In this document: positions 846 to 6,800 of the stretch, piece by piece
Layout of the letters: each line of letters opens with the position of its first letter
How positions within the stretch are numbered: position 1 is the first letter of the stretch
DNA from: Escherichia coli
Lineage (GTDB): Bacteria > Pseudomonadota > Gammaproteobacteria > Enterobacterales > Enterobacteriaceae
Reading direction: 5' to 3' (one strand)
Length of the DNA stretch: 64,000 nucleotides
Assembly: GCF_016026235.1 (NCBI RefSeq)
Contig: NZ_CP065613.1
Position numbers: made by a program

Positions 846-3800
846 TAATTTTTACGTGCAAGACAGTTGCTGAGCTGTCCGGGGAAGACTGAATCCTCCG
901 GTCTGGCAGTGTGTGCAGTACCACTCCCCATAATAATCGTGGTGACATTGTCTGCAGTGCCAGCTGGCTTTACGCACCACGGGTAAGGCATCCGGTACGA
1001 ATTGCTGCAGACGTTTAATCAACTGTATTTCTCTGCGCTCCGGCCTGACATAAGGGCACTGTTGACCGTGCTCTGTCAGCCTGTCGTCAGTGTGTTCAAA
1101 CCAAGGAAGTTCAGTGTCGTATTGCGGATGGTATCTGAGTGCACTGCCACACAAGTGGCAGGTGTAGTTAGCATAAGGTGCGGCCTGTGCTGTACGGGCG
1201 CCCGTCAGACGTCCGTTGCCATCAAGAGCGATAAAGGATTTTGCGTACATAGTCATATTCCTCAGCCGCCAGACGACACGCAGGCAACAGCCGTCCCGGT
1301 ACGGGCAGCGTGGTCCGGTGTGAATGGCGGTTTCAGTTCAGTCTCAGAAGGGAAAATCAGTGTGGTGGCCGTGAACACGTCATCACACTGAAGTCAGATA
1401 ACTCGTCTGTCTGGCTCAGCCACGACTGCAGCCAAAGTTGCGCTCACCGGTGCAGTGAGCTTTGGTATGCTCCTTCGCCAGATAGTCAGCACGTTCCAGC
1501 ACTTGCTGAAAGCCGGTGTCATCATTACGCGCCAGCCACACCGCCGGCCAGGCCGGAAAATGCACCAGCGTGGCATGGCACCCGACATCCACTCCCAGGG
1601 CACTGCACCACGCCTGTTTAATCATCCCGGCCAGTGATCCCGGAGCGCGGTAATCACCGGCACGACACCAGGTATCCCGGTTGACCAGCAGCATCAGGTG
1701 ATAGTGTTTTTTACCTTTGCACTCCCCAAACTCCCGGGCCCAGACGTAATGCAGGGTTGTGGGATGCACGCGTTTACCTTCCCGATGCTTACGTTTCTGG
1801 TAAGCGTCGATTCGGGCTTTCAGGGCATTGATGAAGCGGGATATCACAGCTGCGTCCGTTGCTGCCGGTACATCCGGGAGACGCAGGTCAACCCGCAATG
1901 CCGTCAGGCGGGGATGAACATTCAGTGCGTGCCGCACCGTCTCACGAATACGTTGCTGCCAGAAGGGGTTGTATTTGTAGGTCATGGTTAAATCTCCGTA
2001 TGGTTCATACGGAATAGCCACGTCGTAAAAAATGCGCAGAGTCCCTGAAGTGACCTCCGGCAGGACACTGTCTCAGGCACTCTGTGATAACCCGAACGGT
2101 CGTCTCCGGACTGACGGTTGAATTTTCAGCGTTGTTTTTTAATGTAAAAAACCGGTTACGGGTAAGGCTGTGAGGAGGGAGTTATGGTGATACGCAAAAA
2201 GAAGTGCAGGGACTGTGGAAACGCGATTACTCATAATACAGTGTGTTGCCCGTATTGTGGTTCTGTCGACCCCTTCGGCTACTACCGGAATACAGACCGT
2301 ATCGTTACCATACTGCTGGCGCTGATTATTGTGGTCCTGCTGACTACTGTCAGCGTCAGTGTGTGTATACTGTGTAGCTGGTGAGATAACGGTTCATGTA
2401 TCCCCTGAGCTGACAGTGTACCGTGTATATTAAGCGTAACCGACAGGTTCTCCTTCATACCATATTAAATTTTTCCAGGTATTGCCGCTGCCTTATTTCG
2501 TCCCATACAGGAAAACTCATCTGGGTTTCTGACAAATACGCGAAACTCACAGCCCCTCAATATCAACCACACGTTGTAAGCCGGTAATACCTGAAAATCA
2601 GCCTATTACCGCCCACGCCTCCGGCACCATTCCCTTTTGATTTCGAATTCTTTGTTGTCGCTATACCGCTTAATGTTCCCGGTCCTCCGGTGCAGATAAC
2701 ACCGGAGTCATCGTAGCGCTGCTTCAATATTCAGGTGACATATTTCCAGACAGAAGCCGGCGCGCGATCGTAAAGTTTGTTCATTGTCAGTTCTGCCAGC
2801 CGGTTGTCAACGGCAGAGTTAAAGGCTTCCAGCTCCGCAAGGGTAAGTTTATAACGCGTGTGGGAATTCACTTTTCCCGCGTCTCCTGACGTATTACGGG
2901 CTGCCACTTACCTGGTGTCCCGCAATACAGCCTTAGTGTTCCGTTATCGGGGATCCGGACGCACCGCAACAACCGGGGAAGTATTTCTGGTTTAGAGCAG
3001 TGTCAAGAGGGATTTCTCAGCCCCTCACTCACCGGCTCAGTCTCAAGGCAGGAGAATTAATACGCTCAGTTCATGTCTTATACAGGAATGGGCACAGGGG
3101 GAGCTAGCGTGTCACTGCTGATTTTACGCATCAGCGTTCATGTATCTGCACTCTGATACATGAACGATTCACAGCGCTCTGTTACCGGAGAGATTTACTC
3201 TCTTAGCTTACTCTGGCAAATCCTTTACGTTACTCTCTGATGACTTCTTATATTTATAATACCAATCAGACAGCCTTATCCCATCGGTGATATCAGTCTC
3301 CTCCTCGCCAGGAACGGGCTGACTCACTGTAACCACCTCCGAAAACAACTCTGCAATTATCAGAACGCCTGCTTCTCTCCCTGTCCTCACGAAAACTATC
3401 CCCTCTTTATCGCGCGTGCGTGCGGAAGCATCTTTTCGCAACAACCACCCAGTATACCGGTACGGCTCAGCCACCGCAACCTCCCCGTTTATCTCCTGGC
3501 GGTCACATTCCCGATTATTTTTTACGTTTCTCCCCGGTTGTTATGCCGGTGAAGGTGGCGCGCTGTTTTCATGACCACACCGGCTGGTTTAACAACATCC
3601 GGAGGAACATTCTCATGGCTACCCCAGTTTCACTGATGGATGACCAGATGGTCGACATGGCATTTATCACTCAACTGACCGGCCTGACAGATAAGTGGTT
3701 TTACAGGCTCATCAGGGATGGGGCCTTTCCGGCTCCCATCAAGCTGGGCCGCAGCTCCCGCTGGCTGAAAAGTGAAGTGGAAGCCTGGCTGCAGGCGCGT

Positions 3801-6800
3801 ATTGCACAGCCCCGCCCGTAATTTCTGACCGTTATCCGTTCACCCGCAGCAGACGTAATCCCCGGCCTGCCGGCGGCATTCTGCTGCCTGTTATATCCCC
3901 GTGAGGAATATGAAAATGAAACAACAGTATCAGACCCGCTACGAATGGCTCCACGAAAGCTACCAGAAATGGCTGACCGGCTTCACCCGGCACGCCGTAT
4001 CCTGGGGCGTGTGTCATCCGAATATCTACTACTTCCATAATCTGACGCCCGGTTGGGTGTCATTCAATGGTGAAAAACCGGAGATTGCCATCGTACCCCA
4101 GAGCCTGCACCGGCTGATTTATGGCCCTGACAAACGGGCCACGCCGCCCCTGGATGATGATCTGATCGTGAATTTATGCACCAGTGAACATCTGCTGGTT
4201 CATCATCCGATGCTGGAAGGCATTCTCCTGTCTGAATGTGAACGTCTGAGGCAGCGTTCTCTGGCAAATAAACTGATCAGCCTCTTCCGTCAGTTTGGTG
4301 GCACGGAGTTGCGCCTCAAACTGGTCTGGCTTTGCTGGCTTGATTTAATGACCGGAAACAGCCTTGAAGACTGGAAAGAGAACCTGAAACGGAAATCAGA
4401 AAAAGAGCTGGAGGAATGGATCATCAACCGTCAGAGGCAGAGCGCAGCACTGACGGATCTGATGGATCAGTACGTGCTCCTGGCATACCGCACAACGGTT
4501 GACGATAACCGCAACTGATGCCGGTTGCTTCCGGAAGGTGTGACAAAATACGGAAATGATGATGCTCCCGGCCCCGCATGCTCACCTGCAGAGCGTGTTC
4601 GTCGTCATCATACTGAGCCATGACGGGCGTCTTAAGGGCATCCTGTCATTGCTGAGCAGGCAACACCACCAGAGGAGCCACGGACAGGGATGTTCTTTAC
4701 AGCCCGATGCACGCCAGGTTCTCAGCAGACTGAATGTGCAGGTGCGGTTATTCACCAGAAATGGCATGCTGCGGTACATACCCATCCTGGTGACAATATG
4801 TACGTGGCGACAGCGATCCCGGCACTGTGGAAGAGACTCACTCAGCCTGCAGGATATTCTTTCCGGCATCCGGGAATGTCCGCCTGAATGCAAACAGGAT
4901 GATATTTGAATCCGTAATACTGTTCTTTCATCATAAATAATTTATGCAGATACAGTTAACCGTCACAGTAGCAGGTTTGTTTTCCCGGGAAATAATATCC
5001 GTCAGACTGATGCCGGAACATATCTGAAACACGTTATGATGTTTTGTTATCAGAAATGTTGTATATTCTTATCCGTGACGGCAGTTTAATGCCCTCTGGT
5101 ATCACCTGATAATGCATATCCTGCGATGATTCGTTATATTTACGGGACACGTCTCTTTTCATTGTGCTCCTTTTCAGACTTCATTTTCCATAAGTGTTCC
5201 CCGGCATAAAGGAGGTACCTTTCTGGCGTTTATAACTCTCTTTATCGGTGACGCCGGTAATACAGGGAATACCACACCGACAAACGAGGTATTAACGGAC
5301 GATATTTCAGTGTCCATAATTTTGCTGTCCGGTTAAATAACGTCAGTCTGCTGCCCTCTGACTGTAATCATCAAAGCCGGAATGCATACCGGGTTACAAC
5401 GTAAAAAAAGTGATGCTGGCCCCCGGTGCAGCTGGCGGGCGAAACATGTTTACCTTTCAATACCCCCTGTCTGCAGTCTCCACTCTTCCATCCTCTTAAG
5501 CTACGTCGGCCACATGAGTGCACTTCCATGATAACAGGTATTCCTGTCAGCATAACGAAGCCGGTTACCTTCCCTTCCTCCTGCATTTCCTATCAGAATG
5601 ACTGTACAGCGCGCAGATTGCCTTTTTATTGACCACCTTAATATACCATTATAAACTTCTTTTTATCATGTTATTATCACCTTATTATGTTTAATTTTTA
5701 AGCAGCCAGAGAAAGAGGATGGTTCAGAAAATTTTGTCGGATAAGGTTATGAATGAAAGAACAAATGCGTATTACTCTTATTATCTTGGAGGGCGTAATA
5801 TCTCCGTACTGCCCCTTAATGTTTATGATCCCCCGGAACGTTTTATCGCTTACATAAAAAAAAACAGAGAAAATCTGAACATCACACTTTCAGATTTTGA
5901 ACTTGAACAAATAATTTCTGGTATGCGTCTGAAGGCCCTGGCCTTCCTGGTCCCCCTGGAAAAAATATCCTGGATCGCAGGCAGTGAACGCGCATGCTTA
6001 TTTTCCTGGTATCTGTTGATGCAGTTTATCCAGAATAACAGGGCAAAAATAAGCGCAGACTTGCTTCAAAAGAATAAACTGTATCTTAAAGAAGAGTATC
6101 TGGAAGGGAATGCCTTCCCGTCGGACTCATCGACACAGTTCAGACAAATACTCAGAGTTCTCGATATTCTTTCTGATAAGAATTTGCGGGATGAGTGGAT
6201 AATCCAGACCAAAGACAGATGGATACGGGCATTTAAATCAAAGAGTCCTTTCAGTTACCTCCTCCCGGAGAACGAACATGAATGCATATGGACATGGAAT
6301 TATTTGAAGGGAAAAAATATTGCACTGGAAAAACTGGCCAGTTTTCCTGATTCTGCTGATATTTACCACGCAATTCACCTTTCATTTGACATATGGGTTA
6401 CCTGTACACTCACCTCACCTGACGATATAAAAAATTTCAGAAACAGTTTCAATAAGGCCAAGGCGCAGCGCAAGTACAAAAAAATGCAGGAAGATAAAGT
6501 CAATGTACAGTTTTTTCTTGACGCAGAAACCAGGGCGCAGCTCAAAGAATTATCGAGGGTCAGAAGACTCAGTACCGGCGAAATGCTGCATGACCTGATT
6601 GTTGAAGAGTATAAAAGGTACCGACATTCCAGATAATTTCAGACATATATTATCTCCGTGAGTCCCCCGCCACCTTTCCGGTGTGCGGGGTTTTTGTCTT
6701 TTTTCACCGGGAATACATGTATGAATCCGTCTGATGCCATTGAGGCAATTGAAAAACCGCTCTCCTCCCTGCCTTACTCACTTTCCCGTCACATCCTGGA

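What the first reader, a model, noticed from the sequence alone, without database searches (positions are those of the whole stretch)
850..4520. Island backbone module of hypothetical genes around alpA, with no integrase or tRNA in the window
A Cys-rich protein, a YfjJ/Gp2-like protein, a small zinc-ribbon protein, alpA and a 205-aa hypothetical form the 5' part of the island. About 1 kb (2400-3400) has no ORF above 60 aa; the minus strand of 2745-2890 holds a short ORF (..[45 protein letters not shown]) absent from the ORF track. The island's left boundary, integrase and attachment site must lie beyond the window start.
Basis: seen in the sequence. Interest (0 to 1): 0.3.

Follow-up and report, generated by a model that had tools for sequence, protein, structure and literature searches.

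The report
Decayed core module of CP4-44 island
This is an ordinary, already annotated stretch of an E. coli genomic island: a conserved alpA/Rep-like gene set that has lost its integrase, and the "missing" short gene is a broken copy of the silencing cofactor Hha.

Summary
All five genes and the short minus-strand ORF are at the stated coordinates.

**What the window is.** It is an E. coli chromosome, and the segment lies inside the CP4-44-type island next to cobUST. The same 6 kb is more than 99% identical in RefSeq genomes, where every gene is already annotated.

**The short ORF (2731-2907, minus strand).** It is a remnant of an island-borne hha2/hha3-type Hha gene, with its 5' part replaced and one base deleted. 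A full-length 70-aa copy sits at the same place in strain DP051.

**The ORF-poor kilobase.** It is lineage-specific and not conserved outside E. coli. It looks like a rearrangement scar.

- The genes are island-borne, and the left boundary does lie upstream, about 15 kb away at cobU in the closest genome.
- Three related genomes have no integrase or tRNA there.
- In intact relatives the module is far from the integrase, which lies 8-38 kb away beyond the cargo.

**Conservation in other genera.** Across 24 loci from other Enterobacterales, alpA, a ~200-aa protein and a Gp2-like HUH nuclease always travel together. DUF7828 zinc-ribbon genes often accompany them, and defence cargo lies next to them where I checked it. 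A hairpin is conserved between alpA and the 200-aa gene.

**Best reading.** This is a stranded, decaying excision and replication control module. Interest is low.

The parts
1..869 (+). 3' part of an IS110-family element (transposase pseudogene with an internal stop). It is context for the module, not part of it.
   Evidence: Pfam Transposase_20 and NCBIfam transpos_IS110 match the 426-848 ORF. Comparing NCTC9008 with the uninterrupted ATCC 25922 copy gives a 1165-bp insertion whose right junction is at window 869/870. It lies inside the 3' end of the 134-aa gene and 9 nt upstream of the start of the second DUF7828 gene, which lies beyond the window start.
852..1256 (-). 134-aa Cys-rich protein: DUF7828 plus a C-terminal zinc ribbon. 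It is the first of a tandem paralogue pair.
   Evidence: Pfam DUF7828 2.7e-31 and Zn_ribbon_11 2.3e-7. It has 8 Cys. dN/dS is 0.11-0.17 against diverged copies. Its last ~6 codons come from the IS. The paired paralogue (31% identical) is present in L001, L002, L004 and L005. The same pair occurs in other genera.
1416..1985 (-). YagK/YfjJ 'inovirus Gp2 family' protein (189 aa). Predicted HUH single-strand DNA nicking/Rep-type endonuclease.
2184..2384 (+). 66-aa small protein with an N-terminal CxxC...CCxxC knuckle and a C-terminal hydrophobic helix. Found only in the E. coli versions of the module.
   Evidence: The ORF is intact in 5 of 7 E. coli copies at 52-98% identity, with the Cys pattern kept. 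dN/dS is 0.11-0.22. Only sub-threshold Pfam hits. No tblastn hit in 24 loci from other genera.
2731..2907 (-). Remnant of an island-borne Hha-family (hha2/hha3-type) gene. The C-terminal ~47 codons are homologous; the 5' end is replaced and frameshifted.
   Evidence: Pfam HHA 1.5e-17 covers only profile positions 14-57 of 57. In-frame stops lie just upstream. Alignment to the full-length 70-aa gene of strain DP051 shows a 1-nt deletion and loss of homology 5' of about codon 20. Three other copies (L004, L006, L007) carry a 14-nt deletion instead.
3135..3166 (.). Perfect 12-bp inverted repeat (CGTTCATGTATC N8 GATACATGAACG). A third exact 11-mer copy lies at 2392-2402.
   Evidence: Found. It lies in sequence shared only with close E. 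coli copies. No equivalent repeat is found in the other lineages. Significance unknown.
3208..3474 (-). 88-aa ORF, probably not a gene.
   Evidence: It is annotated as a hypothetical protein in ATCC 25922. The frame is broken in L004, L005, L006 and L007 even though the DNA is 80-96% identical. It has no family hits.
3615..3821 (+). AlpA-family helix-turn-helix protein (68 aa): excisionase-like regulator.
   Evidence: Pfam Phage_AlpA 2.1e-8 and HTH_17. PHROG families 'excisionase and transcriptional regulator'. It is 69% identical to the orthologues in Klebsiella and Yersinia. dN/dS is 0.11-0.15.
3846..3887 (+). Conserved two-tier hairpin in the 94-nt alpA-p200 spacer. Candidate terminator or attenuator.
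   Evidence: MFE is -21.2 kcal/mol, z -2.5. A similar hairpin (at least the inner stem) forms in 19 of 21 aligned loci. 81% of cells are paired, against 36-51% when the 3' partners are slid. Only 3 pairs show compensatory change. The 3' half, TTCTGCTGCCTGT, occurs once per locus and only here. The terminator scan flags 3872-3888.
3916..4518 (+). 200-aa protein of unknown function ('p200'), always paired with alpA.

Best explanation
The segment is a stranded, partly decayed copy of the conserved core module of CP4-44/CP4-57-type (P4-integrase) genomic islands.

**Layout in intact relatives (shown).**
- The order is alpA, hairpin, 200-aa protein, Gp2-like HUH nuclease, sometimes followed by two DUF7828 zinc-ribbon genes. 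All lie on one strand, like an operon.
- They read towards the variable cargo and a convergent integrase next to a tRNA.
- They are divergent from the GTPase / DUF932 / antirestriction / RadC / CbtA-CbeA arm.

**How it most likely works (inferred).**
- The AlpA-type protein switches on excision, as K-12 AlpA does for intA.
- It probably lets RNA polymerase read through the hairpin downstream of alpA, as the P. aeruginosa AlpA antiterminator does.
- The HUH nuclease then nicks the excised circle so that it can be replicated or passed on.

**State of this copy (shown).**
- The alpA-p200 pair is inverted relative to that order.
- An Hha-family gene and a 66-aa gene have been added between the halves.
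- The Hha gene has since lost its 5' end.
- An IS110 element has split the zinc-ribbon pair.
- There is no integrase in the window, and none in the upstream flank of three related genomes.

The island therefore cannot excise on its own (inferred). The ORF-poor kilobase is the rearrangement scar, not a functional element.
For: **Identity and distribution.**
- The first 6 kb of the window matches 4098 of 5426 complete E. coli genomes, with a median of 2 places per genome.
- Every gene, including the Hha-family ORF, is annotated in NCTC9008 at 99.5% identity.

**Module conservation.**
- In 24 loci from other Enterobacterales, alpA lies directly upstream of p200 in 23 of the 23 with sequence available.
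- Gp2 lies within about 1 kb in 24 of 24.
- DUF7828 genes are present in 7.
- The GTPase arm is divergent upstream in 17.
- A P4-type integrase lies 8-9 kb downstream and convergent in 3. One of these is next to tRNA-SeC, with Hachiman-like and GmrSD cargo between.
- BREX and Dnd cargo sit next to the module in Klebsiella and Yersinia.

**Integrase position.** In the E. coli argW island the integrase is 38 kb from the module.

**Decay.**
- The hha truncation is mapped base by base.
- The IS110 junction is mapped.
- No integrase is detectable.

**The gap.** Its sequence is not conserved across genera. hha and the 66-aa gene are absent outside E. coli.

**Literature.**
- hha2/hha3 are linked to the flu-yeeR region, which H-NS/Hha represses (PMC4864382, PMC6480617).
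- Pseudomonas tmRNA islands carry intY at one end and Gp2-like plus alpA at the other, with defence cargo between (PMC12595487).
- P. aeruginosa AlpA is an antiterminator (PMC7969949, PMC9371919).
Against: - No experiment supports excision, nicking or antitermination for this family.
- No nick site or origin could be identified. The only strong inverted repeat is lineage-specific.
- The hairpin shows conservation rather than clear covariation: 3 compensatory pairs. It lacks a classical U-tract after its outer stem.
- alpA, Gp2, p200 and the zinc-ribbon gene are intact, with dN/dS of 0.1-0.3, although this copy cannot move. That could mean a function unrelated to mobility, or simply recent immobilisation.
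- The true upstream sequence of this particular genome was not available. The claim of absence rests on three relatives.
Confidence: 0.6

Rival explanations
1. The module belongs to an integrative mobilizable element. The Gp2-like HUH protein would be a Rep-type relaxase that nicks an oriT near the divergent promoter region. The GTPase / antirestriction / RadC / DUF932 / toxin-antitoxin arm would enter a recipient first, like the leading region of a conjugative plasmid.
For: The protein has the HUH fold and motifs. The arm directly beside the module carries antirestriction, RadC, DUF932 and toxin-antitoxin genes in every genus sampled. From general knowledge, these are typical early-entry plasmid functions.
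Against: No oriT-like conserved hairpin was found in the intergenic regions. No coupling protein or mating-pair genes were seen in any locus. The Pseudomonas relatives were reported to lack transfer genes and to move by jumbo-phage transduction (PMC12595487).
Confidence: 0.15
2. The module is the remnant of a phage satellite (PICI or P4-like), in which AlpA responds to a helper phage and the island is packaged into phage particles.
For: AlpA is, from general knowledge, the master activator of Gram-negative PICIs. A YfjI (DUF3987) protein sits near the module in some E. coli copies and in CP4-57. Related Pseudomonas islands are phage-transduced (PMC12595487).
Against: No YfjI remnant is present in the window. 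No packaging, capsid-redirecting or primase genes appear in any of the surveyed loci. There are no PHROG matches beyond AlpA, one unknown-function family for Gp2, and two weak unknown-function hits for the 66-aa protein.
Confidence: 0.15
3. The surviving genes (alpA, p200, Gp2-like, zinc-ribbon, and perhaps the 58-aa Hha stub) have been co-opted for a host function such as regulating the neighbouring flu/Ag43 arm. On this view they are not relics.
For: The ORFs are intact with low dN/dS although no integrase is present. The IS110-bearing version is shared by 660 genomes. hha2 deletion affects expression of the flu-yeeR region in strain 042 (PMC6480617).
Against: The low dN/dS is measured between island lineages and mostly reflects constraint before immobilisation. 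The hha gene decays repeatedly and by independent lesions. IS insertions occur in the zinc-ribbon pair, in p200 (L005, L006) and in the GTPase gene.
Confidence: 0.1

Closest known systems
E. coli K-12 cryptic prophage CP4-44 (cobU-yeeX locus) and its paralogues CP4-57 and CP4-6
   Same: It occupies the same chromosomal locus and has the same right boundary as K-12 CP4-44: window 20136 onward matches K-12 at 98.6%. It carries the same distal arm of GTPase, Ag43, RadC-like YeeS, YeeT and CbeA/CbtA. CP4-57 carries alpA and yfjJ; YfjJ is 36% identical to the window's Gp2-like protein.
   Different: K-12 CP4-44 has lost the whole module: window 850-8345 has no K-12 counterpart. CP4-57 keeps intA next to alpA at ssrA and has YfjI instead of p200, with no detectable similarity between the two. 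The window's AlpA is only distantly related to K-12 AlpA (11 of 30 residues, E 2e-5).
hha2/hha3, the horizontally acquired Hha paralogues of pathogenic E. coli (Prieto 2016 PMC4864382; Bernabeu 2019 PMC6480617)
   Same: It is an Hha-family gene that is chromosomal, flanked by IS elements, at variable map positions, and linked to the flu-yeeR cluster. A full-length 70-aa version lies at the homologous place in strain DP051, and the shared part is 91% identical.
   Different: The window copy lacks the first ~20 codons and has a 1-nt deletion. At most a 58-aa product without the N-terminal helices could be made. I did not compare it directly with the strain 042 hha2 or hha3 sequences.
Pseudomonas tmRNA-integrated defence islands I23/I44/I55 (Zhao et al. 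2025, PMC12595487)
   Same: They have a tyrosine integrase at one end. AlpA and an inovirus Gp2-like protein lie at the other end, with RadC present, defence cargo between, and no transfer genes.
   Different: They come from a different genus and a different attachment site. p200, DUF7828, the GTPase and CbtA/CbeA are not reported there. The relationship rests on shared families named in the paper, not on an alignment made here.
P. aeruginosa AlpA antiterminator (PMC7969949, PMC9371919)
   Same: Both belong to Pfam family Phage_AlpA. In both cases a hairpin lies downstream of a promoter that the AlpA-type protein may control.
   Different: No AlpA-binding element has been identified here. The hairpin lies downstream of alpA itself, and its terminator activity is untested.

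Membership tests
Hha/YmoA family | Match to the Pfam HHA / NCBIfam Hha profile | tested here: met
   PF05321 scores 1.5e-17 (64 bits, cut-off 25). NF008191 scores 66 bits, below its cut-off of 90.
Hha/YmoA family | Complete ~70-aa protein including the N-terminal helices | tested here: not met
   Only profile positions 14-57 of 57 are covered. Stops lie upstream, and the 5' end is non-homologous and frameshifted relative to the 70-aa DP051 gene.
Hha/YmoA family | Binding to the H-NS N-terminal domain | not testable with these tools
   The Asp equivalent to Hha D48 is retained ([11 protein letters not shown]), by alignment to an Hha sequence recalled from memory. Binding needs an experiment.
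AlpA family (PF05930) | Profile match and small HTH protein | tested here: met
   Phage_AlpA scores 2.1e-8, above its cut-off. The protein is 68 aa. PHROG excisionase/regulator families also match.
AlpA family (PF05930) | Activation of integrase/excision or antitermination | not testable with these tools
   No integrase target is present in the window. The hairpin at 3846-3887 is a candidate target only.
HUH endonuclease superfamily (inovirus Gp2 / YagK-YfjJ) | HUH metal-binding motif and catalytic YxxK tyrosine | tested here: met
   H94-Y95-H96, Y168 and K171 are nearly invariant in 25 homologues.
HUH endonuclease superfamily (inovirus Gp2 / YagK-YfjJ) | Rep-type alpha/beta fold | tested here: met
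HUH endonuclease superfamily (inovirus Gp2 / YagK-YfjJ) | Site-specific ssDNA nicking at an origin | not testable with these tools
   No conserved nick-site hairpin was found.
tRNA-integrated P4-integrase genomic island | Tyrosine integrase at one end | tested here: not met
   There is none in the window, or in the 15 kb upstream in NCTC9008, STB20-1 and ATCC 25922. Intact relatives do have one.
tRNA-integrated P4-integrase genomic island | Insertion at a tRNA or tmRNA gene with flanking direct repeats | tested here: not met
   The window has no tRNA. The island lies between cobU with a cbi remnant and a pduV remnant. asnV is 3.7 kb away, beyond core genes. Direct repeats were not searched for.
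tRNA-integrated P4-integrase genomic island | Accessory distribution and the conserved CP4 arm | tested here: met
   It is absent from K-12 and L65 at this locus and is multi-copy elsewhere. The arm is homologous to K-12 CP4-44.
PICI / P4-like phage satellite | Primase-replicase plus packaging or capsid-redirecting genes alongside int and alpA | tested here: not met
   Only alpA is present. There is no YfjI remnant and there are no phage structural or packaging families.
Intrinsic terminator | GC-rich hairpin followed directly by a U-tract | tested here: inconclusive
   The hairpin is stable and conserved. However, the U-run (UUUUCU) follows the inner stem and is itself part of the outer stem. 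The scan flags 3872-3888 with a poor tail.

The most novel reading that the evidence does not exclude
alpA, the hairpin, p200, the Gp2-like HUH nuclease and (optionally) two DUF7828 genes form a single uncharacterised control module. It would define a family of P4-integrase islands across Enterobacterales that carry defence or virulence cargo. The AlpA-type protein would act by antitermination at the conserved hairpin. The HUH nuclease would start rolling-circle replication or transfer of the excised island. p200 and DUF7828 would be new, essential accessory factors.
Probability: 0.3. Interest if true: 0.45.

Novelty: already known. Interest (0 to 1): 0.18.

Why it matters
For this window it matters little. 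The sequence is present and annotated in hundreds of E. coli genomes. The island type, the AlpA and YfjJ families and the extra Hha paralogues are all in the literature.

Two points are useful for annotators.
- The 49-58-aa 'Hha/YmoA family' proteins called at this position are gene remnants, not small regulators.
- An alpA gene does not imply a neighbouring integrase in this island family.

The wider by-product is a lead, not a result. The alpA/p200/HUH-nuclease set is tightly linked and sits next to defence cargo in many genera, and it has a conserved hairpin. That offers a concrete starting point for working out how these common but mechanistically obscure islands are controlled and moved.

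Tried and rejected
- **Rfam.** A scan of 1-8000 at E<=1 found nothing, so there is no known sRNA or riboswitch in the gap.
- **Defence system.** PADLOC gave no hits apart from weak AlpA-like HTH matches. The module is not a known defence system.
- **A gene in the gap.** The 88-aa ORF (3208-3474) is frameshifted in other copies. Other ORFs in the gap are under 60 aa.
- **Conserved non-coding element in 2385-3614.** There is no cross-genus similarity. The 12-bp inverted repeat is absent from other lineages.
- **Origin or oriT hairpin.** No shared repeat was found in the divergent intergenic regions of other genera.
- **Solved relatives of the Gp2-like protein.** A PDB sequence search found none, so fold comparison was needed.
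- **Literature on YfjJ/YagK.** The search found no functional study.
- **Strong covariation for the hairpin.** It was not obtained: RNAalifold kept only the 4-bp inner stem.

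
Full report
**1. What the window is**

- The first 6 kb matches 4098 of 5426 complete E. coli genomes, with a median of two places per genome. 660 genomes hold at least 80% of it. The best match is strain NCTC9008 at 99.5%.
- In NCTC9008 the segment lies about 15 kb from cobU, inside an IS-riddled accessory region. That region continues into a GTPase gene, Ag43, DUF932, an antirestriction gene, yeeS, yeeT and the YeeU/CbtA pair.
- The right-hand part of the window island is homologous to K-12 CP4-44, and core sequence resumes at window 20136. K-12 has no counterpart of window 850-8345.

**2. The observation**

Every listed gene is present.

- The 134-aa protein (852-1256, minus strand) has 8 cysteines. 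It matches DUF7828 and a zinc-ribbon family.
- 1416-2021 (minus strand) matches YagK_YfjJ_C at 1.5e-47. It is 36% identical to K-12 YfjJ.
- 2184-2384 encodes a 66-aa zinc-knuckle protein with a hydrophobic tail.
- 3615-3821 is an AlpA-family gene.
- 3901-4518 has no family match. Its homologues start at 3916, giving 200 aa.
- There is no tRNA in the window and no P4-type integrase. Positive controls for the integrase search worked.
- The gap free of ORFs of 60 aa or more runs from about 2459 to 3207. The 88-aa ORF at 3208-3474 is broken in four other copies and is probably not a gene.

**3. The short ORF**

- The 58-aa ORF at 2731-2907 matches Pfam HHA at 1.5e-17, but only over profile positions 14-57. 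Stops lie just upstream.
- RefSeq annotates it as an Hha/YmoA family protein.
- At the homologous place, strain DP051 has a full-length 70-aa hha gene.
- A base-level alignment shows a 1-nt deletion in the window copy and no homology 5' of about codon 20. Three other island copies carry a different lesion, a 14-nt deletion.
- The ORF is therefore a gene remnant, and the gene has been inactivated more than once.
- A 213-nt full-length query finds relatives in 3783 genomes. 2373 of them have a copy covering at least 80% of it.
- These are the horizontally acquired hha2/hha3-type paralogues. They have been described as IS-flanked, at variable positions and linked to the flu-yeeR region, which H-NS/Hha represses (PMC4864382, PMC6480617).

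**4. Where the integrase is**

- In NCTC9008, STB20-1 and ATCC 25922 the interval between cobU and the module holds IS fragments and a PfkB kinase, an amidotransferase, a DMT transporter and a phosphotriesterase-related gene. It has no integrase or tRNA.
- The island lies between a cbi-gene remnant next to cobU and a pduV remnant. Strain L65 has cobU directly beside the pduV remnant.
- asnV is the nearest tRNA, but ldtA and cobTSU separate it from the island.
- Paralogous copies sit deep inside large islands. In A134_1EC the argW-adjacent integrase is 38 kb from the module, and the module lies only about 6 kb from the far end at dsdC.
- So the module is not the integrase-proximal '5' part' of the island.

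**5. The module in other genera**

- p200 has homologues of about 60% identity across Enterobacterales. The family is narrow: 124 representatives among 1.84 billion proteins.
- In Klebsiella the order is alpA, p200, Gp2, then BREX. In Yersinia ruckeri it is Gp2, alpA, p200, then Dnd. In one further lineage it is Gp2, alpA, two DUF7828 genes, then p195.
- A scan of one genome per species returned 24 loci. Their gene order:

| Feature | Count |
|---|---|
| alpA directly upstream of p200, same strand | 23 of 23 loci with sequence available |
| Gp2 within about 1 kb | 24 of 24 |
| DUF7828 genes present | 7 |
| GTPase-to-CbtA arm divergent upstream | 17 |
| P4-type integrase 8-9 kb downstream, convergent | 3 |

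- In Providencia alcalifaciens the integrase abuts tRNA-SeC. The cargo between is a Hachiman-like HamA-helicase pair and two GmrSD enzymes.
- hha and the 66-aa gene were found in none of these loci.
- Compared with this order, the E. coli copies have the alpA-p200 pair inverted in place, with hha and the 66-aa gene added between the two halves.
- DNA similarity across genera is confined to coding sequence.
- The ORF-poor kilobase is therefore best read as a rearrangement scar.

**6. The proteins**

- The Gp2-like protein keeps H94-Y95-H96 and Y168-x-x-K171.
- p200 gave a medium-confidence, partly helical model with only generic matches.
- dN/dS between diverged island lineages is 0.1-0.3 for the zinc-ribbon gene, Gp2, the 66-aa gene, alpA and p200.
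- No protein matches a known defence family.

**7. A by-product: the hairpin**

- The 94-nt spacer between alpA and p200 is alignable across genera. It folds into a two-tier hairpin at window 3846-3887, with MFE -21.2 kcal/mol and z -2.5.
- The same design appears in 19 of 21 loci.
- 81% of cells pair, against 36-51% when the partners are slid. Only three pairs show compensatory change.
- Its 3' half occurs once per locus and only there.
- P. aeruginosa AlpA is an antiterminator that carries RNA polymerase past a downstream terminator (PMC7969949, PMC9371919). A similar role here is an inference, not a result.

**8. Other decay in this copy**

- A 1165-bp IS110-family element fills window 1-869. 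It replaces the last ~6 codons of the 134-aa gene and cuts it off from its paralogue.
- An IS4-family element splits the GTPase gene.
- YfjI, which is present in some paralogous copies, has left no trace here.

**9. Verdict**

- The segment is an already annotated, decaying copy of a conserved island core. The mechanism proposed for intact relatives is inferred from anatomy and from studied homologues. That mechanism is AlpA-controlled excision with hairpin read-through, followed by HUH-nuclease nicking for replication or transfer.
- Related Pseudomonas islands with an integrase at one end and alpA plus a Gp2-like gene at the other are moved by jumbo phages (PMC12595487). The route of transfer therefore remains open.

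Noticed in passing
window 3846-3887: A conserved two-tier hairpin lies in the alpA-p200 spacer. It is shared by about 15 genera, and its 3' half (TTCTGCTGCCTGT) is nearly invariant. It is a candidate terminator or attenuator for an AlpA-type antiterminator, but covariation support is thin.
   Followed up: partly
window 1-869: The 3' part of a 1165-bp IS110-family ('RNA-guided transposase') element, whose transposase has an internal stop. It is inserted in the overlap region of two tandem DUF7828 zinc-ribbon genes. The same insertion is present in the 660 genomes that hold at least 80% of window 1-6000.
   Followed up: partly
window 3135-3166 and 2392-2402: A perfect 12-bp inverted repeat with an 8-nt spacer, plus a third exact 11-mer copy about 740 bp away. 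Both lie in sequence found only in close E. coli copies. Their meaning is unknown.
   Followed up: partly
window 6721-8894: The island's GTPase gene (yeeP/yfjP type) is split by an IS4-family insertion. Its codons 1-62 lie at 6721-6906 and codons 59-290 at 8199-8894. None of the eight best-matching of 5426 complete genomes covered more than 94% of window 1-25000.
   Followed up: no
L001 2087-2230 and 35931 onward; L017 4546-4904: The whole island sits between a cbi-gene remnant beside cobU and a pduV remnant, in the scar of the lost cbi-pdu region. Strain L65 lacks the island and has cobU directly beside a shortened pduV remnant.
   Followed up: partly
L010 11772-20600; L011 10794-20594; L036 11373-18738: In other genera the gene set alpA/p200/Gp2 is immediately followed by anti-phage cargo. 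Klebsiella has BREX plus GmrSD. Yersinia ruckeri has Dnd/Dpt-like genes. Providencia has a Hachiman-like HamA-helicase pair plus two GmrSD genes. This suggests a cargo hotspot.
   Followed up: partly
window 4520-5718: A 1.2-kb stretch at about 42% GC lies between p200 and the 305-aa gene and has no credible gene. In some paralogous copies a YfjI-family gene occupies this interval, but no remnant is detectable here.
   Followed up: partly
window 44000-57000: A 13-kb block has only 29-37% GC (mostly about 30%). Its position downstream of the sbmC-dacD-sbcB region suggests the O-antigen gene cluster.
   Followed up: no
window 5719-6636: The 305-aa protein has no family match. A ~304-337-aa gene occupies the same position, next to the GTPase gene, in many genera, but it is only about 20% identical to this one. 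It may be a fast-evolving partner of the GTPase.
   Followed up: no
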